DNA from: an uncultured Planctomycetales bacterium
Lineage (GTDB): Bacteria; Omnitrophota; Gorgyraeia; Zapsychrales; JANLHA01
Length of the DNA: 64,000 nt
NCBI GenBank assembly: GCA_964374105.1
Contig: CAYJXI010000005.1
Span: forward strand, 12,440-76,439
Direction of reading: 5' to 3'
Of the stretch, positions 12,845-44,202 are shown in pieces; position 1 is the stretch's first letter, and every line of letters starts with the position of its first letter. The notes below the pieces were generated by a model. The model did not search any database. It saw only the letters and a program-made list of their open reading frames with translations, and had not been told where the DNA came from. The position numbers and the translations under genes are program-made.

Positions 12845-13095
12845 TCAACCCTCCTTCTTTTTAAAGGTTAAACGGATTATATCAGATCGCTTTTTCAAAT
12901 CAAGCGATATTTCAACTTTTTATCGACGGAGAGGATGGGTTTTAAAGAAGTCGAAGGAAATTCATAAAAAGAAATTGGGATATGGCAGACTCACCAGTCT
13001 GATAACCAAATTTGTTATTTATAATAATATATTTTATACTTATTCTGACTCATCTTTTAAATTATCTCAAAATTATTTTAAAGCTCTCATTCAAT

Positions 13096-16000
13096 ATGCG
13101 GATTTCAAAGCCTTTCCAACGATTTGTAGCTTTGTGGGTCTTGATTTCTTTTCTGGGGACCTCAAGCTATGCCCAAACCATATTAAGCCTTCCTGCCCCC
13201 GGCACAATGGTGACCGTAAGTGAAGGGTTTATGCCCCCCACCTTAAGGGGAGTCACCATCCATCCGGATAACCCATTGAGCTTCGACTTTATTTTGGATA
13301 TGGGAGATTCCCAGCTTAAAACGCAAGATCTGGAAAGGGAATCATCAAAACTGATCAAATATTTCCTTGCCTCGTTAACGATCCCAGAAAATGAACTTTG
13401 GGTCAATCTTTCTCCTTACGAAAAAGAGAAAATCATCTCGGATCAATTTGGTTTGACCGAGATGGGAAGGGATTTATTGGCGCAGGATTATATCTTGAAG
13501 CAATTGACGGCCTCACTCATCTATCCGGAAAATGAGCTGGGAAAGAAATTCTGGGATCGGGTTTATCAAAAGGCCTATGAGTTGTATGGGACGACCCAGA
13601 TTCCAGTCAATACCTTCAATAAAGTTTGGATTGTCCCCGAACGTGCGGTTGTCTATGAACAGGGGAATACTGCCTTTGTGGTAGACACGCATCTTAAAGT
13701 CATGTTGGAAGGGGATTACTTGGCCCTCAGTGAAAATTTTAAGAGAAGAAATTTTACGGAAGATCAATTGTTAGACAAAGAGGTCAAAGAGCTCGATCAA
13801 ATGAGCTCAAGTATCGTCAAAGAGGTGATCTTGCCTGAGATTGAAAGAGAGGTTAATGAAGGCGAGCATTTTTCCCAATTGCGGCAGATTTATCATTCGT
13901 TAATCCTTGCCGTTTGGTATAAGCAAAATTTGAAGGAGAGTTTATTAAGCAAGGTTTATGTCAATCAGGGAAAGGTGGATGGGGTGGATATCGAAGATAA
14001 GCAGAGCAAGGAGAAGATTTATGAACGGTACCTCGAGGCCTTTCAAAAGGGGGTCTATAACTATATCAAAGAAGATTACGATGCTCATACAGAAAGTTTG
14101 ATCCCCCGAAAGTATTTTAGCGGCGGGGTTCAGTTCAGCCTGGAAAAGGTCAAAGATCAGGCCATTTTGACCACGGTCAAAAAGAAAGAACAGCTGCCCC
14201 TTGAGTCCCGAAAACAATTGTTAAGACACATCGAACGGGCGCGTCAAGGGCGATTTAATCTGATCGCCGCAACCTTAGCGGAAACAACCGGGGATGCCCA
14301 AGCCTTCTTAAGGAATCACCTCGCAAGGCTTAAGACCGAAGATTCGGATCCTCTTTCCCAAGAGTCACGTTTAAATCAAGGATTATCTGAAATCACAACC
14401 GGATTGATCGGCAAACAGTATGAGGTGACTGATGTCCGCGTTGAAAAAGAACGTCTTATCCTCACCACCAAGGATAAAAAGACCATCTCTTTGAATGTCA
14501 GGGAAAAGAAATGGATAACTCAGGATGAGCTGGTTGCCAGATTCAAAACCGCCTTTACCGGCAATGGAAATTTGAAACTCATCACGGATATTGTCAAATT
14601 GTTGCCGGAAAAAATCCAGGTCTTGACCTTTGAAAATCTAGAAGGAGACCTCCTGGGGCTGGCCTCACGAAAATTAGGACTATTGGCCCTGCATCAAAAT
14701 TTGGCCAATAATCCTACCGCCCTTTTTCATGAAATCGGGGAGTTCTTGGGACAGAGTGAGGGAGAGGCACAAGCTCCTTTGAATCTGGAATTTAAGATCA
14801 CCAAAACTCAAGCCAAAACTTTGGGGTTTCTTTATGTCCGTGATCAAAAGGGGAGGGCCATGAGAAAGCTTGCCGTTGAACAACCAGAAGTCGTGGATCT
14901 TTTTCAAAAGGGGCCTAAGAATCATCATTACTTATTGAGGGGCATGCAAAGGATTCTCTTACCACAAGAGGATAAACAATTGTCCATCGAGATTAAAAAG
15001 GCCTTGCATGAAGAGGAGCTGAAAAAGGAGACCAGGGCTGTATTTAAGCGAATCGAGGAAGAGGCAACAGGCAACGTCTCTCTCCAAGATAAATTGACAA
15101 ACGATCAAGCCCAAATCAAAGAGATCCTTGACCTTTTAACTTTGGCTTATCTTGTTAGTCAAAGGGCGGTTGAGAGGGACTCTTTGAAGGCGATTTTTAT
15201 GGGAATCCTTCAATCCGATTCTAGCGAATTTAGGAATTCAATTTATGAATCATTGAAGAATCTTGGGCGATCAGCCATCTTAGAAGAGCTGAATCCACAC
15301 CTTATCCGTTATGATATTCTTGCCCGCCTGATTTCAAAAGGAGGAGAGCAAAGTCCTCTTTTGATCAACATCACCCGATCCTTTGCGCAAGCGAGAATTC
15401 TGACGGGAGACAACCTCGATAAATTTGAATTTCTTATGCTCAACGTTATCCCATCGAATTCTAAAAGGGGAGAGATCTATCAGTCTTTGTTAAAGCTCTC
15501 TGAGCTAGCTCTTGAAGAACTCGATTCCTATGTGATTTTAGGAATTCTGAATTTAGACTTCATAAGACAAATTTTAGATGAGTTAAAACAAGATACACCG
15601 AAGGCGCTTAAGATATTAATTGGATTAACCCAATTAGGAGTCATCACCCAAGAAGCTAAAAGGGATAAACTGAAAACCTTAAAGGCCCTCTTCAGCGGCC
15701 GTGATACAGAAAGGTATCGAAAACAGAAAATTTATGATAGCCTCCTTCATCTTACAGAGACATTTGCGGAAAAAGGGTTAAATCCGCAAATTCTTGATTT
15801 AGAAATCATCCGAGCAGATTTTCTGGCGATATCTAAAAATTCTGATGTCGCCATGGACACTTTTCTTGCCTTGACTGAGATAGGTTTCATTGAACCAAAG
15901 ACACTTAAGAGAATTAGTGGCCTTCTATCCACCCTTGGCATGGGTGATTATAATTCAAAAGACAATTATGACTCTTTGCTGAAATTAGTTAAAGCCGTTA

Positions 16001-19000
16001 AAACAGAAGACTTACCTTCCCAGTTGTTGGATTTTGATTTGTTGAGTACAGTTATCAGTTCTTCTAGGCTAGGTTCCCATCGAGTTCTTGACATGTTATT
16101 AGAAATGGGAAGGGCGGTTAAGACCAATGGGGTAAACCCTGTCATTGTCGATTTAACTCTGCTTAAGGCAGTATTGAATCATTCTCCTTGGCATTCTCAT
16201 GATGTCTATAAAGAAATCTTAAGTTTGGCGGAAACTGTTAAATCTCATAATTTACCTGTTGGAACCCTTTCCAAAGATACCTTAATGAGTCTCCTTGAAT
16301 ATACAAAGATAAATGCAGGAAAAGGAATTCAAATTTTGAAGGCACTTGCTATAGGCGGGGCCATCAAATATGGCGAACTTGATCGCGTAAGAGGTCTTTT
16401 TGTCATTTTTACCGGACAAGATTCGGAATTTTATAATTCTACTTTGCAACACATAGAGGAATCAATCCGGCTCCAATTGGACCCAGTTGTCTTGGACTTT
16501 GATTTGATGAAAAATATCTTTATGCAGAAAATAGCTCCTATTGATTCCAGTTTTAGGGCTTTAAGGGAATTAGCCGAGGCGGTCAAAACAAAGGGGCTGG
16601 ATCCCTCCTTATTGGATGTGAGGTTGCTTGGGGTCGTCACCAAAAAAGAACGGCCCGGATTAGCAGAAATGATTAACGGCTTAAAGACATTGGGAGAATA
16701 TGTCAACAAATACCACTTAGCGGATTTAAAGCACAATATTCTCGATGTCGAACTGCTTAAAACAATCGCAGAGGAAGCGGATGAGAATATTTATAAAAGT
16801 CTGGCCATGTTAGCCAGAACCGTCAAAGAGAAACACTTGGATGAAATAGCGTTGGATCGGGAACTTCTCATCGACATCATTCGCCATTCCAAAGGTTTTG
16901 CGACGGCCAAGCAATTGGATCTCCTGAGCAGTATAGCCAAAGCGGGGCTTCTTTATCCGGATAACCTAGAAAGATTTAAGGATTTTATCAGACAAATTAA
17001 CGAGTTGAGAGAATCCTTTAGAGACGATTTTTCGCAGATTTTTGAAGCCATCGCTGGTTTATTTGATTCCGCTCAAAAAGGGGAGATCAATGAATTCATC
17101 ATTGATTTTGATTTAATTCTTGGGATTTTAGAAAGATCACCAAAACCGATTTCTATTCTTAATTCCCTTAAGGAGATCGGCAAGGCGGTTAAGGTCAAAG
17201 GAGTGAACTTGACCGTGAAAGGCCTTGAGGGGCCGTCAGCGCAAGAACAGGAATATAATTTGGCAACAAAACTGATCCAACAATCGACACATACGGCCAC
17301 TATTCACAAATCTTTGGATCTTTTAACTGAATTGATTGAAAGCGGGTTTGTTCAGCGTGACATCAAACAGGCGGCTCGGTTTATTGCGTTGGTTAATGAG
17401 GATTTGTTTGATGTTTTGATAGAACTCCTTCGAAGTTTTCGAAAGAAAAATGTCAATACCTCGGTCTACGATCCGGATTTTATTTCCCAAGTGATTTCCA
17501 TGACTAAAGACGCAAATGTCTATGGGATTGAAGCCTTAAAGGAGTTGGCAGAAGCGGATATGTTGATCGAGGGTCGGAAAGAAGAAATTATGACATTTTT
17601 CCAAGATATTACTAACATTGTTAAAGAAGAGTTTAGAGCAGATGCCTTTCAGGTTTTAAGTCACTTTATCAAATCTTCAGTGATTAAGTTCGGTCGTTTT
17701 AAAGAGATCATTGATTTCTATAACAAAATTAATAAGTTAAATAATCAGCCTTGGCCTTATCAGGCAATTTTGGCTTTGGATAAAGTTGGTCGAGTAAGAT
17801 TCGAGAATTTAAAAGATTTAGAGACTTTGCTGTTGATCATTGATCAGAAAACCTCTTCTTATGATTATTTAAATTCTATCATTTCCTCAACACAATATGT
17901 CAAAGATAACGAATTGGCCACCGTCATCCTTGAACCTAAATTATTGACAGAAATCCTTGCCAAAGAAATTTCCCATCCTGAATTTAAAAAGATTCTCGAT
18001 CAATTGATCGAATTGGCCAAAGTGATTAAAAGGAAAGATATTCCCATTCAATTGGCTATCCATTTGGATTCCTTTCGATATATTTTTGGGAATTTTGCTC
18101 CAAACTATAGCCTAGAAATTTTTAAATGGTATACGGACTTTCTCAAAGAAAATAGTGAATCGCTTAACTCTGTCCTCATAGAAGGTATTTGGGATGGGAT
18201 GAAACTCGTTAAGACAATCAAGGAAGAACAAGGTGGTGAGGGTCAAAAGGAAGTCTCCCAATTTTTAAATTGGTTTAGTTCGCATTTTGTAAAGGATAAA
18301 GAATTGTTTCCTTTGCATTTTAGTTTCAAGACATTTGCCGAGGAAGGCAAATTTACAATTGACCGGTTTTCGGTTGAGAACAATCTGTATTTACTCCCTA
18401 CCGAGATCCGCCAAAAGATTAAAGAAAAAGGATTTGAAGAGATCTTAAAAGAGGTAAATCCCTCCAATTATCTTGAGGAAGTTTATGCCGCCTCACTCTA
18501 TGTGGCTTTACGTCGAGATGTACAGGTTGCCATCGGTTTGACCTTTAAGGAATTCTTGGAGATCTTAAACGGAAAGGCCAATTCTCCCTTTAGTTCCCTC
18601 GTGACTTCCTTGATACAAAGAAAGGTCTTTAAAATGGAATTGGAGCTCACCCCCAGCCAGCAAGAACAAATCATTACTTTAAGTATTGCCTTGCATAAGG
18701 CCATGTTAGATCTCTTCCATGAATCGGCAACAAGCGGAAGCGTCACCTTCCGTGAGCTTATTCGATTCAACGTCAGTTTCAGTAAATTTTATTTGCAACA
18801 GATTGGGTTAGAGAATGTGATCGAGTACTTTATTTTAACCGCCTATAATATCTATGGCCGAATTATTGATACCCAAGAGAAAAAAGAAAAGTTTACAAAG
18901 GCCATGATCGGACTTTTATATTCAGATAAGTTTAAGCTTTTGCTGGGACAGGCGCAAATTGAATCCGAGGGAATCAGGGGGAAAATCTCCGAAATTATCC

Positions 19001-22000
19001 AGAATATCGTGGATTATGCGGATTATACGGATTTGAAACGCTTACCCCAGGAAGAGGAAATCCCCTTAAAAGTCACCATCAAGGCCGTGATTGAGCGGTC
19101 ATTACAGACAGACAGTGCTCCCCTCCTAATTGTTGATGATGACAATTCCATCCTAGTCGAGGAGGTTTTAGAAGAGTTGAGCCAACAAAAAGATACTGTC
19201 ATGATCCGCATCACGATGAATGCCTTCAGCCGGCGGCAGGAGTTGTTTGGCATGTATCTGCCTAAAAAGCTTTTGTTGGAAAGGCAAGTCAATGCGCTTG
19301 TTGAGACGGCCCCCCAGAGCGATATTCAAGCTGCCCTCAAAGAGATTTTGGGGTTAAAAGAAGATGAGGTCGACTCTTATTTTAAGGAATGGCAGAACAC
19401 CTTGAGTTTAAGGGAAGACCATTTTCTGCGTCAGGCCATAGCCACCTATTTGAATAATAAAGAAGATTGGCGTCAATTTATGGAATGGAAAAACGGGGTT
19501 TTGGTCAGGTTAAAGGAGAAGGCCAAGAAAGACAAAAAGAAAAAGTATCTCATCAATCTCGATAACATCTCCGCCGCCCCGGATAGTGTGCGGCTCCTTT
19601 TGAATCCTGTTTTGTGGGAGCGAATGGTGGAAGTTCCTGAAAAAGGAATGCTTTTAGAATTACCCTCTAATTTGAATTTCATCATGACCATGCATAAGGA
19701 TACAAAAATCATCGACGACGCATTTATGAACCGTCCCTTAGTCCAACACGTTGCCCCTTTGAGTCAGACAGATTATATTCGTTATTTGACAAAAAGCGTC
19801 GGCCTTCAAAAACAAGTGGCCGAACATCTATTGGGAATATTCTCTGAGATTAAAAGACAAGGATTTTTCGAAGACCCGAGACTCAATTTTCATGATCTTA
19901 TCGAAATCGCCAAACGTGCGACACGGGTTTCCTTAGAAAATGATTTGAAACAGGAAGATGTCCTTTTTAAAGAAGCCTTTGATTACCTGTTCTTAAGGAT
20001 GAGGAATGAAAAGGATCGAGACAATTTGAAAAAAATCTTGTTCAGTGACAAAGAGCAAGGTCTTTATCATCCTCTTAAGATCACCGTTGATCGAGAGAAT
20101 GGTGAGATCAACTTTGATGGGGTGAGGCTTAAAGCCTCACCAGCATTCTTGGGTCATTTAAAAGAAACCCCCGAAGCTGATTTTATTAAATTGATGAATG
20201 ATCATTATGGATATATCGTGACGGAATTAGAGATGAGTATTCTTTCTCAGTTGGCGCGTTCCATGAAATATGGTAACAGGGTCGTTCAGTTGGAAGGGCC
20301 TTCCGGGGAAGGGAAAACGGAAGTCGGCCACGTCTTTTCTAAGCTCATTGCTCTTAATCTGGTTGAGCGCACAATCAATCAAGAGACAAATCTGTCAGCA
20401 TTCCGCGGGATCATTCGGCCCACCAAAGCAGGGCGTTATGAATTGTATGAGCCGGTGTATTTAGAACACATTGAAGAGGGCGGGAATTTATTTTTATTGA
20501 ATGAGATCAATACCAATCAATCGGGGGGATTGTATTATTGGCTGTACCCTGAGATCACTCAGCGTGATCACAAAACATTAAGTGAATTCGCTGACATAAG
20601 CGATGAGTCAATCGTCAAAAGGGCCCGGATCGACCAAAATAACCTTTGGCTGTTTACCGTGAATCCGTATGGGTTTTTGGGGCGCGGCATCACTCCTCCC
20701 ATTATCCCCTCCCAAGTCAGTATCTTTTATATGGCCCAGAATCCCGATTCCCTTCCCGAAGTCATCCGCGGTTATTTTGAACGAAACGGTTTACGTGAAG
20801 TTCTTTCCGGTGATTTGTTCAAAGAATATGTGGATAAATTGACATCCATCCATAAGGCCTTAAGAGAGCTTAAATTCACCTATCGATTGCGTTCTCCCCA
20901 AGACATTACCCCACGGGAACTGATCAGTGTCACAACAAAATTTCGCAACTTCATGGTAGAGGAAAAATTAACGCCTAAGGGAGCCTTCCAACGCGCCGTT
21001 GAGGAAACTTATACTTATGTTTGGAAGAATTTAGAGGATATAAAACTGGTGCGTTCGCTGGTCAATGAGATCAATGGGCATGCGGGAAATACGTATCAGG
21101 ATAGAGCGTTTTTGAATAGGGTTGTTGTCGAAGCAACTCGGCCAGTGATGATCTTTTTAACGGCCGCCAATGATCTTACCCAATTGGAAGGATCCATCCA
21201 GGAAAAAGATCCCAAGGCCCAGCTTTTTCATATTCCGTTAAGCTATTTTCACCGCAACCGGCAGTTTGTAGGAGGATTGATTCCTAAGGGGGAAAAAAAG
21301 GTTTTGAGCGGCCGATGGAAAGAAGTCCATCAGTTGACAGCGCAGTTAGAAGAGGGGTTAGGGATCATCCCGGAATTGATCAAAGAGGCGAGGTTTAATC
21401 CCGAAAGAAACATTTATGGCATTTTATATAATTATACGCATCTTAATCCTCAAGTGGCTCCCTTATTGAACGAATTTTTCCAGAAAGGATACTTAGAGGG
21501 AATCGAGGAGCTTATCACCTCAAGGGTCAGTGAGGAATTGTTAAGGCAACTGAAATCACAACCTCAAACCATTTGGCAACAACTCCGAGGAGACTTCGCT
21601 GGCAGTCTTCCCGGGGAGATTGAGCAATTGTCAGATGAAGAAAAACTTTCCTTTGCGCGGTGGTTTTATTCAAAAGCACCCCGGAATTTACGATTCATCG
21701 CAACAGGCTCGAGTGTAGAAGAAACCAGTTTAAGTCCGGCCGAATTGAATCGCTTCTTGGCGGTTAATATTTCTGCAGAAATGGACCTTGAATGGTTAGA
21801 GAATTATTTGGGAAATAAAATAAGTCAAAATGGCTTGGATGCTTATGAATCACAGATCAGTCAAGTGGTGATTCCCGCCTACCAATTCTATCAGCAACAA
21901 ATGGCCCTTTATGAATACGACCACAATCGTTTGGGGAGAAGTGATGTTGATGCTTTTATTGAAACCTTGAAGGAATATCCCAGCCTCAATCCTTCTCTTA

Positions 22001-25000
22001 TCAAAAAATTAGCTTTTTATACATTCGGGATGGGATTAAGGCCGAAATTCAGGGATGAATATCAACTTAAGATCAAATATCAGGAAGAATGGGGACAGCA
22101 GACCAATCTCTTTCGATATGAAACCAGAGCAGATGGTATTTATCTTATTGTGGATGGGATTGCCATGAAAACACAACTGAAAGAGATCCCTAAGAAACGA
22201 TTTTTAGCCCCCACCAAAAATTTGATCCGGCAGATGGCCTCCATGCTGATAGGTTTAAAAAGGGGGAGGATCCTCATTATCGAAGGGGAACCTGGAGGAG
22301 GCAAAACCTCAGGATCAGAGGATCTGGCCGAGCGCTTAGGGTTGGATTTTTATAAGGAGCTCATGTACGAGGATATCAATCTGGGAGATTTTTTGGGAAG
22401 GCTTTCTAAGGAAGGGAATGAATATGTTCTGACAGCTTTAAAGAAGGATCCTCAGCAAAGACCCTTGATCAGATTTTTGAAGGCTTATACACAGGGAGGG
22501 TTATTTTTATTAGATGAAGGGGCTATTGGTTTTAACTCCCAAGAGGTGATTTCCTATCTAACGGAATTAGCCCAATTGAAGGAATTTGATTTAGGCTTGT
22601 TTCATCCGGGATTAAAGGGGCAGGTTTTGAAACGTCATCCCCAATTTTATTTGGCGATGGCCCAGAATCCGGCCAAAACAACCAAGGCCAGAAAGCCGGT
22701 TCCCTATCGAGTGGATACCCTGGCTCACAAGACATGGTCAGACAATATCCTTGATGAAGAAGATGCGATCCGAATCATGGATTATTATCTCACCAGTCCT
22801 GAAGCCATCTCTCTGGATTTGAAAAAGAAAATCGTCAACATCCATATCCAGTTTTCCCGGCAGCATCCCCGGAAAGAAGAATTAAGCCCCCGACAAATCA
22901 TTATGATCGCCCGACTTTTAACCCGGGCCATTGAGGAAAATGCCAATCTTGAGCGAGCCATTTTTGAAGGGCTTATGCTGGGGTATTTAACCGCCGAGTC
23001 GCAAGAGGAATTCACCAAATTATGGTCGGTGGTTGACCAGCAAATGCAAGGGAGGCTCAATCGATATTTAGCCGAATGGAAAGAGCCAGTGAAGATCGAA
23101 AAAGAAGACAATTTTATTCGATTAAATGGAACTAAATTGACCAAATCGGGGACGGAAGGCAATGTCTCGGAGAGAGACTTCCAAATCATTGAGAATTTAC
23201 CTTCCCAAAGCAAGAGTCTTCGGGCGCTGGCCTTAGGGTTATCCATGAATATGCCGATTGCCCTTCTTCAAGAGGATGGGGCCGATGCCCTCGATTTAGT
23301 TAGGAAATTCGCCTATAAGGTCAACTACGAACTTCATACGTTATGGTCTCATCCGCAAATGACTAAGATGCACGTTCTGGAAAACTTATTGCCCAAATTC
23401 AAAGCCCAATTTGATCGTTACGGGATCAAAGAGGAAGAGGTCACGAAAGAATTTATTATGGGATTAGGATTTTTGGCCAGGCATCTCATGAGACACGCAG
23501 AATATGAAAAACTTGACCTTAAGCAAAAAACCACCCAAACCCAGAAGATTCTTTTCTTTCATTTGATGGATGCGATCCCAGAGAAACAGCGGGTTTTATT
23601 AAATGATTTACTGAATACAAACAAAATTGAACTGATCGATGAGAAGGGAGAAGCTGCCATTTATATTTTACCCGATTGGGTGCATATCATGATCTCCTCT
23701 CCGGTAGAACACAAATTTTCCTCCGCATTTATCAATCGTTTCTTACCCATTCGGATTTCCCCGATTTCTGATTTAGATGAGATAACAACCGTCATTCAAA
23801 ATCGCTATCCTTTGGTTAAGGAAGATGAGGTTGTTTGGCTAAGACAAGTTGCAAACACGGTTTATGAATTCGATAGAAATGGTGTCTTTAGTCTTCATTA
23901 TGGATTTAGCCCCCGGGATGTTTTCAAACTAGCCGCCTTGGTGCAATTAGAAAAGCAGCGGGATATCGAGATGGGGAAGTTGAGTGACGATCCGCAAAAC
24001 CCAAAACGAGTTTCTCTCTACCAGAATCCCCTGTATTATGTGATGAAGGCATTCTTTCTGACTTATGGGTTGGGGATCAAAGAATCCGACTACGCGATCT
24101 TTGAGAACGAAATCATTAAGAAAAAGTTCTTAATGCCATTGGGGAAGGGGAGAGAACCACGCATCGTCAATGAGGTGTATGAAAAGATCAAAGCCAGAAT
24201 AAAGGAAGATTTGTCCGGATTAGAGACCGAGGACTATATCTTGAGGGTGGATATAGGTCAGATGGTGGAAGGCAAACTTGAGACCCTCCCGAATGGAATG
24301 AATATAACTCGAACGAAGGGAGGTTTTATTATTACCACTCTGTCGGCCAATGTCTATCAAGTGAGAGATGACCAATTGAAGGATTGGGTAAACCTAAATC
24401 CGGACAGCGATGAATTTTCTCTGAAGCTTGAAGAAAATCAAATGATTTTTAAATTAAAATTGATAAATAGTATCGGAGGGGTCTTCATCCCCAGAGATGA
24501 AGTCAACCAATTATTGAGTTTACCGGAAAGAGAAGTCCCTACCAAAGAATTTATCCGCTACACTAAAGAAATCCGATACCTTGACTCAAGCATTTTGCGG
24601 GGATGGCAAAGGTTCAAAGATTATAGCAATCGGATGGAGGCCCCCCGGGTTCTTTTGCTGAATGGCCTCACCGGGACAGCCAAAACAACCTTGATTAGAA
24701 ATATTGCCAGAATTTGGGGGGTGCCCCTGTATATCCTTAACTCCTTTGAGGAGATCAAAGTGTCGGATTTGACCGTGGGACTTAAGTTGAGGGAAGGGAA
24801 GTTTCAGGTCGGAATTAAGGAATTTTTGGCTCGGGTGGGTAAAATCAACGGGACTCGCTTCAGCATCCCTTCCAAAACCACCTCAAACCGTTCTATCCTT
24901 TTAATTGATGAGGCGAATGCCAATCCAGAAATCCTCTATGCCCTAGCCCCCTTATTCCGGGGGGAGAAAAAGTTTACTGTGGAATATGTAGGGGAAAGTT

Positions 25001-27921
25001 TTGCGGTCGAGGTTGATAGTGAGGTGATGGTTGTTTTGACATTTAATCCTGTCGAAACTTATGCCGGGCGGGGAAAATTTGCTGATGAAATTGTTTCGTT
25101 TGCAGAAAAACTTTGGGCGCCGGATCCTCTCAAATACCCCGAGGAGGTTTTGGTGAGTATTTTGCAGGAATACCACCGGCGGGGCATCACAAAGACTCGT
25201 CAGGAAATTGAACGGCAACTGCCCAGTTTGCCCTTGATCTCTCAAGAAGGGTTTAAAGAGGTTGAGCCCTCTATGGTGGAAGTCAAAGCCGCGCCCCATC
25301 CTTTGGTGGAAAGTTTAGACTCGGTTTTGGGAGGGCCTAAAGAACCAGAAGCTGAGGGTGAGAAACCCGAGGTCAAGATAGAAGAGAAGAAACCCAAAGA
25401 AAAGATCCAGATCAAGATAGAGTACGATACCACACTGATCAAAGAGGCGGCCAAGCAATTTAAAAAGGAAGAGGGTCCTTTGTTCTTTATCGAGAATATT
25501 TTGAATGGATTTCTCTCTGCGATCGCCAATGGCAATTCTGATGAAGAGCTAAGAGAGTTGGTTTTAAAGGTTTCCGATCTCCTCGGAGTGGACGTTGGGC
25601 GAGTAGTTAAAGATATCATCGAGATTTATCAAAAGAATTTGATCAATGAAGGTGAGCTCAAAGATGCACTTCTTGAATTAAGACGAGTTTTTATCAAAAG
25701 AGGACTTGCCGTATTTATGAAAATCGTAGTCAAGGATGATACCCCGTTCATTGTTTTGACGACTGAAGAAATTCAGCGCATGAAGAGATTAAAAGCCGAT
25801 GATTTAAGCAAATTGGGAGAAGATTGGGTCAAATATAAAAGGAATCTTCCTCGGACGTTGGTAGTCAAAGGGAATAAATATAAACGCCCGGGAGTGAGTG
25901 GATTTTTTGAAGGGGAATTGGCCTTCGCCTTCGAAGAGGTGGCTCAGAATGAAATGATAACAGCCAAAGTATCGGCCATTTCGAATGTGACTTTTGAAGA
26001 ATTCGTTGATTGGATTGCCCTCCATGAACTAGGACATGTCATGGATAAGATGAGACTTAAAGTGAGGGGATTTGAGGTTCAAGAAAAGAAACCCTGGGAA
26101 AAATTGATTCAGGATGTGAATACCTCCGGAATCGGGGTATGGCTTTCTCAGAATATTGAATTGAATGCGATGATCTTACCCTTGATATTCTCCCCGAAGG
26201 CTAAAGAGTTTGCTTTATACGAACTGGTTCATATGGCCAACACCTTAAGAGATGTTAATGATTATTATTTTCAAGCCGCCCGGGGAATCTTGAATGCCCT
26301 TATGAAATACCTCTACGAAAAGGGGGAAATCAAAGAGTTGGTTGTATTAGAAGAAGATTTTACCGATGAATTTGACCGGCGACTCAATTTGATCAAAAGT
26401 GTCATCGAGAAAATGACTTCTAAGGAGCTGAATGCGATGGGGGCGGTTATTTATCAGAATCCGGCTAAGTATTTCTTTGAGGTCAAGGGAGGAAAGTATA
26501 AATCGAAGATTCTAGTCATGAGCGGTCCCGATAGTATTGAGGAAGTTTCTTTGGGGGTAGATGGGATACCGGATGTCGATATGCAGTATGCAGAGAAAGA
26601 GGGTGAAGTTGAAATTACAACTCCACCCAGCGAAGGGAATAAGTCCAAATTGATTCGGGAACCGAAATGGAGTGAGGCCACAGAAGAAGGAGAAGAAGGC
26701 CCTAAAGGGCCGCCGAGCGGTCAAAAAGGCGAAATAGAGGAGGCGGTCAAGGAAGAGGAATTGACTTCAGGATTAAAGAAACAAATTGAGACTTTGAAGG
26801 AAATCAATCCTAATCTGATTTCTCGATTTTTAGAGAATTTTGCGGGGACCCCAGAGACGATTAAGGAATATGCTGATACCGGAGACCGGATTGATGTAGA
26901 AAGAGCCATGATAGGGGATCCGGAGGCCCTCTTTACCGAAAAGACCTTGGAGAGACTCGCGCAATTAAGTATTGGCTTGACGATTGATGTCAGCGGAAGT
27001 GTCCGTGGGTGGTTGCTGAATCAGTTTATTACGATGGCTCGGTATTATTCGTCTTTATTTCATTATGCTTCAGTGAAAAATAAAGAAGTCGATTTTTCGA
27101 TCAGTGCGGTTGGGGATTTTTTTCATTCTATTTTGAAATTTATCGATGCCAGAAACAGGGAGGCCGTGGAAAAGGCCTTAGATAAGATCTCTGAGATTCG
27201 TGACAGCGGGGGGATCAACACGCTATCCGTGATCAAAGGCCTTCGAAATAAGTATTCACAGCAAAAAGACAAGGTTTATAAGATGGAGATTGTCTTAACC
27301 GATGGCGGGGAAACCTCGGGAGTCGCTTTTAAGGAATTGCGGGAGAAAGTTATTCAATTGGAAAAGGACCTCGGGATCGATGTGGTTTTTATTGGGATCA
27401 ATACAAAAGAGGTCAGTAATTATTCTAAGTTTATCGTTTTGGATAAAAATCCAAAGGCCGAAGATCTGATTCAATTGATTATTAAACTGTCCATGTTAAA
27501 AAGCCGGGAAGGCATGTTGCCTTACGGGGATTTAGGTGAGTTATTAGGAATCGTCCCCAAAAAGAAGGGGGAGGCCCCCGAGGCCCAATTAATCCCTGAG
27601 CGTCAATCTCCAAATCCAACTTTAAAAAGATCTGATAAAGCCATATTGACCAACCAACCACCCGGAGGGATTGATCTTAATCCAGCCAATTTCCAATTAG
27701 AGATCAAGCGGGATGAAAACGGCATCCCTCTTCCTATTCCTTTACAGCCGATTGAACAAATGAAGATTGATGGTTTTGTACCCATTATCATCAATATCAC
27801 ACCCATTCATAACCTTCCCAACATTTTTGGGGGGCTTCCGAATAAAGACAAACCCTCTGACTCCTCGACCTTAAGTTATCGCCAGGAATCGGAGATGGAA
27901 TTGGTGGGTACTACCCCTTAA
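13096..27921 (+). CDS. Giant multidomain protein B (about 4941 aa). It has a Sec signal peptide, an N-terminal domain, an array of ~45-aa helical repeats, three AAA+ (AAA_5/midasin-like) modules, an HExxH motif and a C-terminal vWA/MIDAS domain.
   Basis: Uninterrupted 14.9-kb ORF. The ORF track starts at TTG 13012, but the in-frame ATG at 13096 gives MRISKPFQRFVALWVLISFLGTSSYA|QT, a textbook signal peptide. Walker A GPSGEGKT at 20296-20319 with LFLLNEIN at 20488-20511. GEPGGGKTS at 22285-22311 with LLDEG around 22510-22521. NGLTGTAKTT at 24661-24690 with LIDEANA at 24901-24921. HELGH at 26023-26037. MIDAS D-V-S-G-S at 26986-27000 and LTDGGE at 27295-27312. Conserved C-terminal tail at 27658-27807. 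Confidence 0.85.
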   Translation: MRISKPFQRFVALWVLISFLGTSSYAQTILSLPAPGTMVTVSEGFMPPTLRGVTIHPDNPLSFDFILDMGDSQLKTQDLERESSKLIKYFLASLTIPENELWVNLSPYEKEKIISDQFGLTEMGRDLLAQDYILKQLTASLIYPENELGKKFWDRVYQKAYELYGTTQIPVNTFNKVWIVPERAVVYEQGNTAFVVDTHLKVMLEGDYLALSENFKRRNFTEDQLLDKEVKELDQMSSSIVKEVILPEIEREVNEGEHFSQLRQIYHSLILAVWYKQNLKESLLSKVYVNQGKVDGVDIEDKQSKEKIYERYLEAFQKGVYNYIKEDYDAHTESLIPRKYFSGGVQFSLEKVKDQAILTTVKKKEQLPLESRKQLLRHIERARQGRFNLIAATLAETTGDAQAFLRNHLARLKTEDSDPLSQESRLNQGLSEITTGLIGKQYEVTDVRVEKERLILTTKDKKTISLNVREKKWITQDELVARFKTAFTGNGNLKLITDIVKLLPEKIQVLTFENLEGDLLGLASRKLGLLALHQNLANNPTALFHEIGEFLGQSEGEAQAPLNLEFKITKTQAKTLGFLYVRDQKGRAMRKLAVEQPEVVDLFQKGPKNHHYLLRGMQRILLPQEDKQLSIEIKKALHEEELKKETRAVFKRIEEEATGNVSLQDKLTNDQAQIKEILDLLTLAYLVSQRAVERDSLKAIFMGILQSDSSEFRNSIYESLKNLGRSAILEELNPHLIRYDILARLISKGGEQSPLLINITRSFAQARILTGDNLDKFEFLMLNVIPSNSKRGEIYQSLLKLSELALEELDSYVILGILNLDFIRQILDELKQDTPKALKILIGLTQLGVITQEAKRDKLKTLKALFSGRDTERYRKQKIYDSLLHLTETFAEKGLNPQILDLEIIRADFLAISKNSDVAMDTFLALTEIGFIEPKTLKRISGLLSTLGMGDYNSKDNYDSLLKLVKAVKTEDLPSQLLDFDLLSTVISSSRLGSHRVLDMLLEMGRAVKTNGVNPVIVDLTLLKAVLNHSPWHSHDVYKEILSLAETVKSHNLPVGTLSKDTLMSLLEYTKINAGKGIQILKALAIGGAIKYGELDRVRGLFVIFTGQDSEFYNSTLQHIEESIRLQLDPVVLDFDLMKNIFMQKIAPIDSSFRALRELAEAVKTKGLDPSLLDVRLLGVVTKKERPGLAEMINGLKTLGEYVNKYHLADLKHNILDVELLKTIAEEADENIYKSLAMLARTVKEKHLDEIALDRELLIDIIRHSKGFATAKQLDLLSSIAKAGLLYPDNLERFKDFIRQINELRESFRDDFSQIFEAIAGLFDSAQKGEINEFIIDFDLILGILERSPKPISILNSLKEIGKAVKVKGVNLTVKGLEGPSAQEQEYNLATKLIQQSTHTATIHKSLDLLTELIESGFVQRDIKQAARFIALVNEDLFDVLIELLRSFRKKNVNTSVYDPDFISQVISMTKDANVYGIEALKELAEADMLIEGRKEEIMTFFQDITNIVKEEFRADAFQVLSHFIKSSVIKFGRFKEIIDFYNKINKLNNQPWPYQAILALDKVGRVRFENLKDLETLLLIIDQKTSSYDYLNSIISSTQYVKDNELATVILEPKLLTEILAKEISHPEFKKILDQLIELAKVIKRKDIPIQLAIHLDSFRYIFGNFAPNYSLEIFKWYTDFLKENSESLNSVLIEGIWDGMKLVKTIKEEQGGEGQKEVSQFLNWFSSHFVKDKELFPLHFSFKTFAEEGKFTIDRFSVENNLYLLPTEIRQKIKEKGFEEILKEVNPSNYLEEVYAASLYVALRRDVQVAIGLTFKEFLEILNGKANSPFSSLVTSLIQRKVFKMELELTPSQQEQIITLSIALHKAMLDLFHESATSGSVTFRELIRFNVSFSKFYLQQIGLENVIEYFILTAYNIYGRIIDTQEKKEKFTKAMIGLLYSDKFKLLLGQAQIESEGIRGKISEIIQNIVDYADYTDLKRLPQEEEIPLKVTIKAVIERSLQTDSAPLLIVDDDNSILVEEVLEELSQQKDTVMIRITMNAFSRRQELFGMYLPKKLLLERQVNALVETAPQSDIQAALKEILGLKEDEVDSYFKEWQNTLSLREDHFLRQAIATYLNNKEDWRQFMEWKNGVLVRLKEKAKKDKKKKYLINLDNISAAPDSVRLLLNPVLWERMVEVPEKGMLLELPSNLNFIMTMHKDTKIIDDAFMNRPLVQHVAPLSQTDYIRYLTKSVGLQKQVAEHLLGIFSEIKRQGFFEDPRLNFHDLIEIAKRATRVSLENDLKQEDVLFKEAFDYLFLRMRNEKDRDNLKKILFSDKEQGLYHPLKITVDRENGEINFDGVRLKASPAFLGHLKETPEADFIKLMNDHYGYIVTELEMSILSQLARSMKYGNRVVQLEGPSGEGKTEVGHVFSKLIALNLVERTINQETNLSAFRGIIRPTKAGRYELYEPVYLEHIEEGGNLFLLNEINTNQSGGLYYWLYPEITQRDHKTLSEFADISDESIVKRARIDQNNLWLFTVNPYGFLGRGITPPIIPSQVSIFYMAQNPDSLPEVIRGYFERNGLREVLSGDLFKEYVDKLTSIHKALRELKFTYRLRSPQDITPRELISVTTKFRNFMVEEKLTPKGAFQRAVEETYTYVWKNLEDIKLVRSLVNEINGHAGNTYQDRAFLNRVVVEATRPVMIFLTAANDLTQLEGSIQEKDPKAQLFHIPLSYFHRNRQFVGGLIPKGEKKVLSGRWKEVHQLTAQLEEGLGIIPELIKEARFNPERNIYGILYNYTHLNPQVAPLLNEFFQKGYLEGIEELITSRVSEELLRQLKSQPQTIWQQLRGDFAGSLPGEIEQLSDEEKLSFARWFYSKAPRNLRFIATGSSVEETSLSPAELNRFLAVNISAEMDLEWLENYLGNKISQNGLDAYESQISQVVIPAYQFYQQQMALYEYDHNRLGRSDVDAFIETLKEYPSLNPSLIKKLAFYTFGMGLRPKFRDEYQLKIKYQEEWGQQTNLFRYETRADGIYLIVDGIAMKTQLKEIPKKRFLAPTKNLIRQMASMLIGLKRGRILIIEGEPGGGKTSGSEDLAERLGLDFYKELMYEDINLGDFLGRLSKEGNEYVLTALKKDPQQRPLIRFLKAYTQGGLFLLDEGAIGFNSQEVISYLTELAQLKEFDLGLFHPGLKGQVLKRHPQFYLAMAQNPAKTTKARKPVPYRVDTLAHKTWSDNILDEEDAIRIMDYYLTSPEAISLDLKKKIVNIHIQFSRQHPRKEELSPRQIIMIARLLTRAIEENANLERAIFEGLMLGYLTAESQEEFTKLWSVVDQQMQGRLNRYLAEWKEPVKIEKEDNFIRLNGTKLTKSGTEGNVSERDFQIIENLPSQSKSLRALALGLSMNMPIALLQEDGADALDLVRKFAYKVNYELHTLWSHPQMTKMHVLENLLPKFKAQFDRYGIKEEEVTKEFIMGLGFLARHLMRHAEYEKLDLKQKTTQTQKILFFHLMDAIPEKQRVLLNDLLNTNKIELIDEKGEAAIYILPDWVHIMISSPVEHKFSSAFINRFLPIRISPISDLDEITTVIQNRYPLVKEDEVVWLRQVANTVYEFDRNGVFSLHYGFSPRDVFKLAALVQLEKQRDIEMGKLSDDPQNPKRVSLYQNPLYYVMKAFFLTYGLGIKESDYAIFENEIIKKKFLMPLGKGREPRIVNEVYEKIKARIKEDLSGLETEDYILRVDIGQMVEGKLETLPNGMNITRTKGGFIITTLSANVYQVRDDQLKDWVNLNPDSDEFSLKLEENQMIFKLKLINSIGGVFIPRDEVNQLLSLPEREVPTKEFIRYTKEIRYLDSSILRGWQRFKDYSNRMEAPRVLLLNGLTGTAKTTLIRNIARIWGVPLYILNSFEEIKVSDLTVGLKLREGKFQVGIKEFLARVGKINGTRFSIPSKTTSNRSILLIDEANANPEILYALAPLFRGEKKFTVEYVGESFAVEVDSEVMVVLTFNPVETYAGRGKFADEIVSFAEKLWAPDPLKYPEEVLVSILQEYHRRGITKTRQEIERQLPSLPLISQEGFKEVEPSMVEVKAAPHPLVESLDSVLGGPKEPEAEGEKPEVKIEEKKPKEKIQIKIEYDTTLIKEAAKQFKKEEGPLFFIENILNGFLSAIANGNSDEELRELVLKVSDLLGVDVGRVVKDIIEIYQKNLINEGELKDALLELRRVFIKRGLAVFMKIVVKDDTPFIVLTTEEIQRMKRLKADDLSKLGEDWVKYKRNLPRTLVVKGNKYKRPGVSGFFEGELAFAFEEVAQNEMITAKVSAISNVTFEEFVDWIALHELGHVMDKMRLKVRGFEVQEKKPWEKLIQDVNTSGIGVWLSQNIELNAMILPLIFSPKAKEFALYELVHMANTLRDVNDYYFQAARGILNALMKYLYEKGEIKELVVLEEDFTDEFDRRLNLIKSVIEKMTSKELNAMGAVIYQNPAKYFFEVKGGKYKSKILVMSGPDSIEEVSLGVDGIPDVDMQYAEKEGEVEITTPPSEGNKSKLIREPKWSEATEEGEEGPKGPPSGQKGEIEEAVKEEELTSGLKKQIETLKEINPNLISRFLENFAGTPETIKEYADTGDRIDVERAMIGDPEALFTEKTLERLAQLSIGLTIDVSGSVRGWLLNQFITMARYYSSLFHYASVKNKEVDFSISAVGDFFHSILKFIDARNREAVEKALDKISEIRDSGGINTLSVIKGLRNKYSQQKDKVYKMEIVLTDGGETSGVAFKELREKVIQLEKDLGIDVVFIGINTKEVSNYSKFIVLDKNPKAEDLIQLIIKLSMLKSREGMLPYGDLGELLGIVPKKKGEAPEAQLIPERQSPNPTLKRSDKAILTNQPPGGIDLNPANFQLEIKRDENGIPLPIPLQPIEQMKIDGFVPIIINITPIHNLPNIFGGLPNKDKPSDSSTLSYRQESEMELVGTTP
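15280..17240 (+). repeat. Array of tandem degenerate ~45-50-aa alpha-helical repeats inside giant protein B, seen at the protein level. Consensus is roughly h..L..LAxxVKxxGLxPxxLDhxLL.
   Basis: Repeated segments with a similar pattern, for example NPQILDLEIIRADFLAIS, LPSQLLDFDLLSTVISS...LLEMGRAVKTNGVNPVIVDLTLLKAVL, LDPVVLDFDLMKNIF...LAEAVKTKGLDPSLLDVRLLGVV and INEFIIDFDLILGIL...IGKAVKVKGVNLTV. Giant A carries analogous repeats in roughly nt 300-2300. Confidence 0.4.
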
Positions 27922-42414: not shown

Positions 42415-42858
42415 ATGGAAATTATCCTAGGTCAAGATATCCCCAAATTAGGGAAAGTCGGAGATGTGATTAAGGTGAAAGATGGTTATGCCCGCAATTT
42501 TCTTATTCCTAAGAAAATGGCGTACGTGGCTACTCCTGATAATTTAAGGAGAATCGAACGGGAGAGGGTCCAAAAAGTTGCCCAAAACGAAAAGGTTAAA
42601 AAAGAAGCCGAGGCCTTGGCCGAAAAAATAAGCAAGGTCTCTTGTACACTCACTGTGGAAGTCAATGATCTAGAAAAACTTTATGGATCAGTTTCGGAAA
42701 ATGATATTGCCAAAGCTCTCGAGATTGAGGGATTCTCGATCGATAAAAAATCCATTATCCTCGAAAAGCCAATTGAAGAATTAGGCATCTTTGAGGTTAA
42801 GGTTAAAGTTCACCCAGAAGTCATGGCTAAAATTCGAGTATGGGTAGCGAAGAAATAA
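42415..42858 (+). CDS. rplI: 50S ribosomal protein L9
   Basis: MEIILGQDIPKLGKVGDVIKVKDGYARNFLIPKKMA... GGGAGGAG RBS upstream of ATG 42415. Confidence 0.9.
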   Translation: MEIILGQDIPKLGKVGDVIKVKDGYARNFLIPKKMAYVATPDNLRRIERERVQKVAQNEKVKKEAEALAEKISKVSCTLTVEVNDLEKLYGSVSENDIAKALEIEGFSIDKKSIILEKPIEELGIFEVKVKVHPEVMAKIRVWVAKK

Positions 42859-44171: not shown

Positions 44172-44202
44172 CAGATCCAATGCGAACTTTTATAATCACC
44201 TC

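What the first reader, a model, noticed from the sequence alone, without database searches (positions are those of the whole stretch)
26023..26037. Conserved HExxH zinc-binding motif between the last AAA+ module and the vWA domain in both giants
Both paralogs conserve (A/L)(F/L)HELGHVMD (giant A 10366-10380; giant B 26023-26037). Downstream they conserve L..SxN(L/I)ELN(S/A)(I/M)(L/I)(F/L)PLIFSPKAKE(Y/F)ALYELV, which contains candidate third-ligand Glu residues at a gluzincin-like distance.

An embedded metallopeptidase-like module inside an AAA+/vWA megaprotein would be unexpected. It could indicate a self-processing or substrate-cleaving activity. Alternatively, HExxH can occur by chance in helical proteins; conservation across roughly 50% diverged paralogs argues for function.
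Basis: partly seen in the sequence, partly recalled or inferred. Interest (0 to 1): 0.55.

Follow-up and report, generated by a model that had tools for sequence, protein, structure and literature searches.

The report
Conserved zinc-protease-like module in giant ATPases
Both giant ATPase proteins in this window carry a previously unnamed ~390-residue domain whose zinc-protease-type motif (HExxH plus a downstream Asn-x-Glu and a Tyr) is conserved in almost every relative, but its predicted fold matches no solved protease, so it looks like a new metal-dependent hydrolase family rather than a known one.

Summary
Each giant has exactly one HExxH (A nt 10366-10380, B nt 26023-26037; about 0.1 expected by composition). 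It lies between the last AAA_5 module and the vWA domain.

The motif is not chance. It sits in a ~390-aa module (B 25411-26589, A 9769-10911) found in 67 cluster representatives among 1.84 billion. These are almost all Candidatus Omnitrophota, annotated only as "AAA family ATPase", "DUF58" or "hypothetical".

Across 84 non-identical modules, H, E and H are each kept in 75/76. A downstream N-x-E is kept in 75/77 and 77/78, and a Tyr in 76/78. The single exception (P0056) has lost all of these residues together.

AlphaFold models are confident (pLDDT 92 and 95.5) and have a zincin-compatible order: beta-sheet, then the HExxH helix, then a Glu at the next helix start. Foldseek found no significant match in PDB or BFVD. 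Pfam, NCBIfam and PDB sequence searches gave only sub-threshold gluzincin hits (M3, M9, M60).

Best reading: a new gluzincin-like hydrolase domain tied to MoxR/midasin-type AAA+-vWA machines. Catalysis and zinc binding are inferred, not shown.

The parts
13012..27921 (+). Giant B ORF (4969 codons from the first possible start). The likely start is ATG at 13097, giving MRISKPFQRFVALWVLISFLGTSSYAQ, which looks like a signal peptide.
24652..25056 (+). Giant B, last AAA_5 (MoxR/dynein/midasin-type) ATPase module, P-loop GLTGTAKT
   Evidence: Pfam PF07728
25411..26589 (+). Giant B, HExxH module (393 aa). An N-terminal 5-helix bundle, a 5-stranded sheet, the HExxH helix, and then further helices.
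   Evidence: AF2 pLDDT 92.1 / pTM 0.90; core pLDDT 95.5; 67 homologues
25885..25935 (+). Giant B, RPGVSGFFEGELAFAFE beta-hairpin just upstream of the HExxH helix. It contains near-invariant G164 and invariant G168. Candidate substrate-binding edge strand (inferred).
26023..26037 (+). Giant B, HELGH (module residues H205, E206, H209) in the middle of helix 195-218 (nt 25993-26064). The finding itself.
26065..26151 (+). Giant B, clade-specific insertion between the HExxH helix and the N-x-E motif. Shared with A, P0001-P0005 and P0014; absent in most of the family.
26152..26160 (+). Giant B, N-I-E (N248, E250). Invariant Asn and Glu at the N-cap of the next helix; the candidate third metal ligand.
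26263..26295 (+). Giant B, YYFQAARGILN. Invariant Y286, Q288, I293 and N295 at the start of helix 285-303. Y286 is a candidate transition-state-stabilising Tyr (inferred).
26590..26979 (+). Giant B, charged linker (23% D+E, 13% K+R) between the module and the vWA domain
26980..27420 (+). Giant B, vWA domain with an intact MIDAS DVSGS motif (26986-27000)
   Evidence: Pfam PF00092
27664..27849 (+). Giant B, C-terminal tail motif GGIDLNP..LEIKRD..G.PLP...QP......GF.P.II.I.P. Shared with other large Omnitrophota proteins.
1..12255 (+). Giant A ORF (N-terminus cut by the window start), a tandem paralogue of B
9001..9369 (+). Giant A, last AAA_5 module
9769..10911 (+). Giant A, HExxH module (49% identical to B's)
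10228..10278 (+). Giant A, RPGVSGFFEGEFAFAFE hairpin
10366..10380 (+). Giant A, HELGH
10495..10503 (+). Giant A, N-L-E (candidate third ligand Glu)
10606..10638 (+). Giant A, YYVQAAKGILN
11332..11787 (+). Giant A, vWA domain with MIDAS DISGS (11335-11349)
12040..12225 (+). Giant A, C-terminal GGIDLNP... tail motif

Best explanation
The HExxH lies at the centre of a previously undescribed ~390-residue domain that most likely forms a zinc-dependent hydrolase active site of the gluzincin type.

Proposed active site (module numbering for giant B):
- The two His of HELGH (H205, H209) and the invariant Glu of the downstream N-x-E (E250) would hold the metal.
- The Glu of HExxH (E206) would act as general base.
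- The invariant Tyr (Y286) would help stabilise the transition state.
- The conserved GYFEGE-x-A-x-x-F beta-hairpin just upstream would form the substrate-binding edge.

The domain always sits N-terminal to a vWA or DUF58 (MIDAS-type) domain that works with a MoxR-clade AAA+ ATPase. In the giants of this window the ATPase is fused in the same chain. In a ~1150-aa membrane form it is encoded by the next gene.

The most likely mechanism is that the vWA/MIDAS domain captures a target, the AAA+ motor remodels it or repositions the tail, and the module cuts it. Alternatively the module cuts its own charged linker.

Shown here: motif, position, family-wide conservation, joint loss in one member, secondary-structure order, and domain and gene context. 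Inferred: metal binding, ligand identity, hydrolysis, peptide substrate, and coupling to the ATPase.
For: - One HExxH per giant against about 0.1 expected.
- 67 homologues in an exhaustive HMMER search, with the motif present wherever the region is covered.
- In a 33-sequence alignment with 33% mean column identity, only 10 of 393 columns are invariant: G168, H205, E206, H209, N248, E250, Y286, Q288, I293 and N295.
- Over 84 non-identical modules: H 75/76, E 75/76, H 75/76, N 75/77, E 77/78, Y 76/78.
- The only full-length exception, P0056, replaced H, E, H, N, E, Y and Q together (T, T, L, A, W, S, V). It kept the structural G168, W201, G208, P257, Y267, I293 and N295. This is the pattern expected of an inactivated enzyme paralogue.
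- HE(L/I/F)GH with Gly at the fourth position (63/76) is the form seen in many gluzincins (own knowledge).
- The AF2 models are confident. HExxH lies mid-helix (195-218), is preceded by a 5-stranded sheet, and is followed by a helix whose N-cap carries E250.
- In most relatives the Glu is about 19 residues after the second His.
- All weak database echoes are gluzincins: oligopeptidase A/M3 at E 0.56-1.8; Peptidase_M60 in 3/33 members; ImpA HExGH family in 2/33; collagenase G/M9 with the highest TM and probability in Foldseek.
- Context: AAA_5 upstream and vWA with intact DxSGS downstream. The short class is followed by MoxR in 7 loci.
- Peptidase domains fused to vWA partners of MoxR are documented, with metallopeptidases as rare cases (PMC7159879).
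Against: - No significant structural match to any solved zincin. Foldseek against PDB gave best E 0.086 for the full module and 0.76 for the core. Collagenase G scored only TM 0.28 at rmsd 12 A. BFVD was also negative.
- No peptidase family was reached by Pfam, NCBIfam or PDB sequence searches. hhalign to thermolysin aligned only the HExxH helix, with probability 0.5%.
- The weak hits are anchored on HExGH itself, so they are not independent of the motif.
- The M3 alignment puts E250 opposite a Glu that is not the M3 zinc ligand (plus own knowledge of thimet oligopeptidase E502).
- I could not read model coordinates, so the His-His-Glu geometry is unverified. E250 sits at a helix N-cap rather than inside a 'glutamate helix'.
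- A compartment paradox remains. The module appears extracytoplasmic while the giants' ATPase modules need ATP.
- There are no experimental data.
Confidence: 0.55

Rival explanations
1. The site binds a metal but is not a protease. It would be a metal-holding or metal-delivering site, or a regulatory metal switch. This fits the fact that many MoxR-vWA pairs (NorQD, CoxD/E, Mg- and Co-chelatases) insert metal centres into client proteins.
For: The domain is found only next to vWA/DUF58 domains that partner MoxR-clade ATPases. MoxR-vWA systems are linked to metal insertion (PMC13036017 abstract; PMC7159879). No zincin fold match was obtained.
Against: The Glu next to the first His (E206) is as invariant as the His residues (75/76). 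That is expected for a general base and not required for plain metal binding. An invariant Tyr, Asn and Gln around the site also suggest catalysis. The neighbouring genes do not point to any obvious metalloenzyme client. The operon partners are a radical SAM protein and a DUF362/4Fe-4S protein, and only in some loci.
Confidence: 0.15
2. It is a zinc hydrolase, but its substrate is not a protein. It would cleave, for example, an amide bond in peptidoglycan stem peptides or another cell-envelope polymer of prey or host.
For: The module appears to face outside the cytoplasm. It is flanked by two TM segments with a positive-inside pattern in the short class. The giants have signal-like N-termini and 0 Cys in 9053 aa. 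Giant Omnitrophota proteins have been proposed to act in prey cell-wall degradation (bioRxiv 10.1101/2023.11.21.568195).
Against: No similarity to known peptidoglycan hydrolases or amidases was found in any search. HExxH plus Glu sites are overwhelmingly peptidases (own knowledge). The topology itself is only a prediction.
Confidence: 0.15
3. The conserved residues serve a structural or protein-binding role, such as docking onto the AAA+ ring or the vWA domain, with no metal and no catalysis. The HExxH would then be coincidental with a protease motif.
For: No known zincin fold or family was detected. The module occupies the place of the mechanical 'linker' between the AAA ring and the MIDAS domain in midasin (own knowledge of Rea1/Mdn1 architecture).
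Against: The invariant columns are polar catalytic-type residues (H, E, H, N, E, Y, Q) spread over three helices, and they are lost all together in P0056 while the scaffold residues remain. The short class keeps the motif although it has no fused AAA ring. Chance occurrence is excluded by the expected count of 0.1 per protein and by homologous placement in 75/76 sequences.
Confidence: 0.1

Closest known systems
Gluzincin metallopeptidases (MEROPS clan MA(E): thermolysin M4, oligopeptidase A/thimet M3, collagenase G M9, enhancin/ImpA-like M60)
   Same: HExxH lies on a helix preceded by a beta-sheet. An invariant Glu follows about 19 residues later in most members, and a further conserved Tyr lies downstream. 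Gly is the fourth motif residue, as in M3, M48, M60 and M78. The only sub-threshold database echoes are to these families.
   Different: There is no significant sequence or Foldseek similarity to any of them. The candidate Glu is at a helix N-cap within an N-x-E motif rather than inside a classical glutamate helix. An N-terminal 5-helix bundle and the YxQAxKGIxNG helix have no counterpart that I could identify. The window's clade carries a 22-29-residue insertion between His and Glu.
FtsH / Yme1-type AAA+ proteases (AAA+ fused to an M41 HExxH peptidase)
   Same: One polypeptide combines an AAA+ ATPase with an HExxH domain. This is the functional analogy for ATP-driven remodelling coupled to cleavage.
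   Different: The ATPase here is of the MoxR/dynein/midasin type (AAA_5), not classical-clade AAA. There is no Peptidase_M41 match. A vWA/MIDAS domain follows the module. The chain holds several AAA modules in tandem rather than forming a homohexamer of single modules.
Midasin (Rea1/Mdn1)
   Same: A giant chain with tandem AAA_5 modules, a weak midasin AAA-lid match, a charged D/E-rich stretch and a C-terminal vWA domain with an intact MIDAS DxSxS motif.
   Different: These proteins are bacterial (Omnitrophota). Only three AAA_5 modules are detectable by Pfam. The ~1700-residue helical linker of midasin is replaced by the 390-residue HExxH module. They also have a signal-like N-terminus, no cysteines and a lineage-specific C-terminal tail. 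No solved Rea1/Mdn1 chain appeared among the Foldseek matches listed.
MoxR-vWA/DUF58 systems, including the vWA-MoxR conflict systems with peptidase effectors (Kaur, Burroughs, Iyer, Aravind 2020, PMC7159879)
   Same: The short class is a DUF58/vWA protein followed by a MoxR AAA_3 gene. That paper reports peptidase domains fused to the vWA component, with rare metallopeptidases.
   Different: Here the module is a new family, is present in essentially all members, keeps its catalytic-type residues, and in the short class lies between two TM helices. There were no PADLOC hits. VMAP, FtsH or beta-propeller third components were not found in the neighbourhoods examined.

Membership tests
Zincin / gluzincin metallopeptidases (clan MA) | HExxH motif located on an alpha-helix | tested here: met
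   HELGH is at module residues 205-209, inside predicted helix 195-218. The models have pLDDT 92 and 95.5.
Zincin / gluzincin metallopeptidases (clan MA) | Third zinc ligand is a Glu on a following helix, at least ~18 residues after the second His, positioned to complete the metal site | tested here: inconclusive
   An invariant Glu (E250, 77/78) lies in N-x-E, about 19 residues after the second His in most relatives and 41 in the window. It sits at the N-cap of helix 251-260.
Zincin / gluzincin metallopeptidases (clan MA) | Zincin fold: significant structural similarity to solved zincin catalytic domains | tested here: not met
Zincin / gluzincin metallopeptidases (clan MA) | Sequence membership in an existing peptidase family model | tested here: not met
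   Pfam, NCBIfam and PDB searches with single sequences and profiles gave only sub-threshold hits. hhalign to thermolysin gave probability 0.5%.
Zincin / gluzincin metallopeptidases (clan MA) | Binds zinc and hydrolyses peptide bonds | not testable with these tools
   This needs biochemistry.
Midasin / MoxR-clade AAA+ with vWA partner | AAA_5-type (MoxR/dynein/midasin) ATPase modules | tested here: met
   PF07728 hits in B at about aa 2427, 3088 and 3881, each with an intact P-loop, and a weak AAA_lid_7 hit.
Midasin / MoxR-clade AAA+ with vWA partner | C-terminal vWA domain with the MIDAS motif DxSxS | tested here: met
   PF00092 above threshold in both giants. DVSGS is at 26986-27000 and DISGS at 11335-11349.
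Midasin / MoxR-clade AAA+ with vWA partner | Six AAA+ modules in one chain forming the ring (midasin proper) | tested here: inconclusive
   Only three modules are detectable by Pfam. The conserved ~2300-aa region between the paralogues is long enough for six, but that is inference.
MoxR + DUF58/vWA operon pair (short-class relatives) | DUF58/vWA protein encoded next to a MoxR AAA_3 ATPase | tested here: met
   DUF58 hits lie at the C-terminus of the short-class proteins. A MoxR gene (AAA_3, E 4e-63) is immediately downstream in L003, L006, L009, L010, L012, L013 and L019. It is not seen within the flanks of L014, L015 or L023.
Known anti-phage defence systems (PADLOC) | Match to a PADLOC protein model | tested here: not met
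   No hit for the giant's C-terminal 1306 aa, the short-class protein, its MoxR neighbour or the next gene.

The most novel reading that the evidence does not exclude
The module founds a new metallopeptidase family with a fold not represented among solved structures. It would turn midasin/MoxR-type AAA+-vWA machines of Omnitrophota into ATP-coupled proteases.

The giants carry signal-like N-termini, contain no cysteine and share a C-terminal tail tag, and the short form displays the module outside the membrane. On this reading the giants would be exported effectors: motor, protease and MIDAS 'hook' in one chain, working on or inside prey or host cells and possibly using the victim's ATP.
Probability: 0.2. 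Interest if true: 0.85.

Novelty: new variant of a known kind. Interest (0 to 1): 0.6.

Why it matters
If active, this is an unannotated hydrolase family. Database names for its carriers are only "AAA family ATPase", "DUF58 domain-containing protein" or "hypothetical".

It would be specific to a poorly understood and probably predatory or parasitic phylum. It would also be a clear case of a MoxR/midasin-clade AAA+ motor hard-wired to a protease-like domain and a MIDAS domain.

That gives a concrete, testable handle on what bacterial midasin-like giants and membrane DUF58-MoxR pairs actually do, which is a long-standing gap. The module is small, predicted with high confidence, and has an obvious point mutant (E206A in module numbering) for testing.

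The apparent export of ATPase-bearing giants would be surprising if confirmed.

Tried and rejected
- Word-index homologue search with the single module and with the 33-sequence core alignment found nothing, although the family is in the collection. I treat these as tool misses, not absence.
- The first genome-contig scan, with a 2-sequence alignment, found nothing. The second, with the deeper alignment, gave 26 loci.
- Foldseek against PDB with the full module, against PDB with the trimmed core, and against BFVD all gave no significant match.
- PDB sequence and profile searches gave only M3 oligopeptidase A at E about 1. I rejected this as evidence of homology. The match is anchored on HExGH, and it aligns E250 to a non-ligand Glu of M3.
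- hhalign against thermolysin aligned only the HExxH helix.
- PADLOC gave nothing. tblastn against phages and plasmids gave nothing.
- An exact look-up of a window housekeeping protein, to identify the source genome, was not on record.
- Chance occurrence of HExxH is rejected.
- The KAKE and YEL glutamates are rejected as third ligand because they are not conserved in the family.
- Literature searches found no description of this module or of Omnitrophota midasin-like proteins.

Full report
**1.
Window 26023-26037 reads CAT GAA CTA GGA CAT, which is HELGH. It is in frame with the 4969-codon ORF 13012..27921 (giant B), within ALHELGHVMD. Window 10366-10380 reads CAT GAA CTT GGG CAT, also HELGH, in the ORF 1..12255 (giant A, N-terminus cut by the window), within AFHELGHVMD.

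The Leu and Gly codons differ synonymously between the paralogues while the peptide is kept. The downstream block is also as described: WLS(Q/E)N(I/L)ELN(A/S)(M/I)(I/L)(L/F)PLIFSPKAKE(F/Y)ALYELV.

Each giant contains exactly one HExxH, where its His and Glu content predicts about 0.10-0.11.

Pfam places an AAA_5 module upstream (B aa 3881-4015) and a vWA domain downstream (about aa 4657-4803). Both are above their curated thresholds. "Between the last AAA+ module and the vWA domain" is therefore correct.

**2. The motif belongs to a real, conserved, unnamed domain.**
I delimited a ~390-residue module between the AAA lid and a charged linker: B nt 25411-26589 and A nt 9769-10911. The two copies are 49% identical. 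The module has no Pfam, NCBIfam or PDB sequence match.

An exhaustive HMMER search of 1.84 billion cluster representatives with the two-paralogue profile found 67 proteins, 37 of them at E <= 1e-30. They fall into two groups. One is giants of 2.6-7.6 thousand residues. The other is a class of about 1130-1260 residues.

A scan of one genome per species returned 26 loci. Nearly all are Candidatus Omnitrophota MAGs. A few are labelled Planctomycetes, Chlamydiae or Auribacterota. The window itself is a diderm bacterial chromosome, with BamA, SurA-like, HisG, Prs and RmuC genes. It is probably from the same phylum, but its genome is not in the collections.

Database names for relatives are only "AAA family ATPase", "DUF58 domain-containing protein" or "hypothetical protein". 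I found no paper describing the module.

**3. Conservation pattern.**
In a 33-sequence alignment (25-47% identity to B, mean column identity 33%), only ten of 393 columns are invariant. They are G168, H205, E206, H209, N248, E250, Y286, Q288, I293 and N295, in module numbering for B.

Over 84 non-identical modules from the protein hits and the loci, the counts are:

| Residue | Conserved |
|---|---|
| H205 | 75/76 |
| E206 | 75/76 |
| H209 | 75/76 |
| N248 | 75/77 |
| E250 | 77/78 |
| Y286 | 76/78 |
| Q288 | 73/77 |
| N295 | 74/76 |

All other deviations are truncated fragments.

The single full-length exception is P0056 (5055 aa). It has T, T, L, A, W, S and V at H205, E206, H209, N248, E250, Y286 and Q288. 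It keeps the scaffold residues G168, W201, G208, P257, Y267, I293 and N295. Joint loss of exactly these polar residues is what an inactivated enzyme paralogue looks like. It argues that they act as one functional unit.

The family signature is:
- G-Y-F-E-G-E-(F/Y)-A-x-V-F (a beta-hairpin), then
- W-(T/V)-x-x-H-E-(L/I/F)-G-H-(V/L)-x-(D/E)-x-x-R, then
- about 12 residues, then N-(I/V)-E-L-N-x-x-L-F-P, then
- further downstream, Y-x-Q-A-x-K-G-I-x-N-G.

The Glu that matters is the one in N-x-E (B 26158-26160, A 10501-10503). The KAKE and YEL glutamates are not conserved. In most relatives this Glu is about 19 residues after the second His. The window's clade (A, B, P0001-P0005, P0014) has a 22-29-residue insertion there, giving 41.

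**4. Predicted structure.**
AlphaFold2 with the family alignment gave confident models. The whole module scored pLDDT 92.1 and pTM 0.90. The core (B nt 25696-26478) scored 95.5 and 0.92.

The order of elements is:
- a five-helix N-terminal bundle;
- a five-stranded sheet ending in the GFFEGE-LAFAF hairpin;
- a short helix that is missing in the short-class relatives;
- a long helix (195-218) with HELGH in its middle;
- the clade-specific insertion;
- a helix (251-260) whose N-cap carries E250;
- further helices, one of which (285-303) starts with Y286.

Sheet, then HExxH helix, then a Glu on the next conserved helix is the order found in zincin catalytic domains (own knowledge of thermolysin-like and mini-gluzincin architecture).

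The direct fold test did not succeed. Foldseek against 350,542 PDB chains gave no match at E <= 0.001 for either model (best 0.086 and 0.76). For the core, the hit with the highest TM-score and probability was the peptidase domain of collagenase G, an M9 gluzincin. It scored only TM 0.28, probability 0.18 and rmsd 12 A. BFVD was negative too.

Family-profile searches of PDB sequences returned only oligopeptidase A (M3) at E 0.56-1.8. Per-member Pfam and NCBIfam scans at E <= 10 returned Peptidase_M60 (3/33), M90 (1/33), the ImpA HExGH family (2/33) and Lit (1/33), all below threshold. hhalign to thermolysin aligned only the HExxH helix.

These echoes all point to gluzincins, but they are anchored on HExGH itself. 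They are therefore not independent evidence. The M3 alignment also places E250 opposite a Glu that, to my knowledge, is not the M3 zinc ligand.

**5. Context.**
Three architectures carry the module.
- (i) Giants: a variable N-terminal region, tandem AAA_5 modules, the module, a charged linker, vWA, and a C-terminal tail.
- (ii) A small soluble form: one AAA_5, the module, vWA and the tail (P0041).
- (iii) The ~1150-residue class: an N-terminal region, a strong hydrophobic segment, the module, a second hydrophobic segment, and a C-terminal DUF58/vWA-like domain.

In class (iii), a canonical MoxR ATPase gene (AAA_3, E 4e-63) follows immediately in 7 loci. A radical-SAM gene and a DUF362/4Fe-4S gene follow that in some loci.

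The module is thus always tied to a vWA/DUF58 domain that works with a MoxR-clade AAA+ ATPase, whether fused or adjacent. Both window giants keep the MIDAS motif (DVSGS, DISGS) and three intact P-loops.

Peptidase domains fused to vWA partners of MoxR have been described, with metallopeptidases as rare cases (PMC7159879). No PADLOC model matches.

**6. Most likely mechanism.**
I commit to a zinc-dependent hydrolase, most probably a peptidase, of gluzincin type.
- H205, H209 and E250 would act as ligands.
- E206 would be the general base.
- Y286 would stabilise the transition state.
- The conserved hairpin would pair with the substrate.

It would be coupled to the MIDAS domain for capture and to the AAA+ motor for remodelling or positioning. 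This is functionally analogous to FtsH but built from the MoxR/midasin lineage. Confidence is about 0.55.

What is shown: the motif, its placement, its family-wide and correlated conservation, the secondary-structure order, and the domain and gene context. What is inferred: metal binding, ligand identity, catalysis, substrate, and coupling.

Rivals are:
- a non-catalytic metal site related to the metal-insertion roles of MoxR-vWA systems (0.15);
- a hydrolase acting on envelope polymers rather than proteins (0.15);
- a non-metal structural or docking role (0.1).

The invariance of E206 alongside the histidines argues against the first. Nothing tested here bears directly on the second. The joint loss in P0056 argues against the third.

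**7. An unresolved puzzle.**
Giant B begins (ATG 13097) with MRISKPFQRFVALWVLISFLGTSSYAQ. This looks like a Sec signal, with three K/R before the hydrophobic core and none after. There is no other TM-like segment. Many homologous giants start similarly.

The two giants contain no cysteine in 9053 residues, against 0.97% in the other 28 ORFs of the window (P about 1e-38).

In the short class, K/R counts put both termini in the cytoplasm and the module outside.

So the module looks extracytoplasmic everywhere. Yet the giants' ATPase modules would then be outside the cytoplasm, where there is no ATP. I cannot resolve this.

One possibility is export as effectors that act in prey or host cells. 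Omnitrophota are suspected predators or parasites, and their giant proteins have been linked to predation. That reading is speculative.

**8. Verdict.**

This is best classed as a new variant of a known kind. It is a new, unannotated HExxH hydrolase-like domain family embedded in MoxR/midasin-type AAA+-vWA proteins of Omnitrophota. Interest is 0.6.

Noticed in passing
window 1-12255 and 13012-27921: Neither giant contains a single cysteine (0 in 9053 residues), whereas the other 28 ORFs of the window have 0.97% Cys (P about 1e-38). Close relatives are also Cys-poor: P0001 has 0, P0003 has 1 and P0041 has 0. More distant giants have 20-40.
   Followed up: partly
window 13097-13180: Giant B starts with a Sec-signal-like N-terminus, MRISKPFQRFVALWVLISFLGTSSYAQ, and has no other TM-like segment. 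Many homologous giants have similar N-termini. This conflicts with an ATP-dependent motor in the same chain.
   Followed up: partly
window 12040-12225 and 27664-27849; L006:3061-7911 (C-terminus); C-termini of P0001, P0003, P0060 and P0041: A shared C-terminal tail motif, GGID(L/F)xPxxLNLEIKRDxxGxPLPxxxQPxxxxxIxGFxPxIIxIxP, ends both giants, several homologues and an otherwise unrelated 1616-aa Omnitrophota protein. It looks like a lineage-specific sorting or anchoring tag. It has no Pfam or NCBIfam match.
   Followed up: partly
window 13012-18400 versus the N-terminal part of giant A: The tandem paralogues are 45-80% identical over the C-terminal ~3100 residues (ATPase region, module, vWA, tail). 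They are only about 10% identical over B's first ~1800 residues, which have no Pfam hits. This looks like a swapped or rapidly diverging N-terminal 'head'.
   Followed up: partly
short-class relatives, e.g. P0007 aa 254-281 and 730-755; L006:8906-12481: In the ~1150-aa class the HExxH module is bracketed by two strong hydrophobic segments. K/R distribution predicts the module outside and the DUF58 end inside the cytoplasm. A conserved (L/I)ExxYR motif sits near their N-termini.
   Followed up: partly
L006:12506-17381; L013 and L019 equivalents: A conserved gene string lies downstream of the short-class gene: MoxR (AAA_3), a radical SAM protein, and a DUF362 protein with 4Fe-4S ferredoxin motifs. 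In L006 an unannotated 435-aa ORF sits between MoxR and the radical SAM gene.
   Followed up: partly
P0056 (5055 aa), module at about aa 3985-4385: This giant homologue's module has lost H, E, H, N, E, Y and Q together but keeps the scaffold residues. It is an apparent pseudo-enzyme copy.
   Followed up: partly
window 42840-46527: A 443-aa ORF lies directly upstream of, and slightly overlapping, the BamA gene (Omp85 plus 5 POTRA). By position it may be the RseP-type site-2 protease, another HExxH protein. I did not check this.
   Followed up: no
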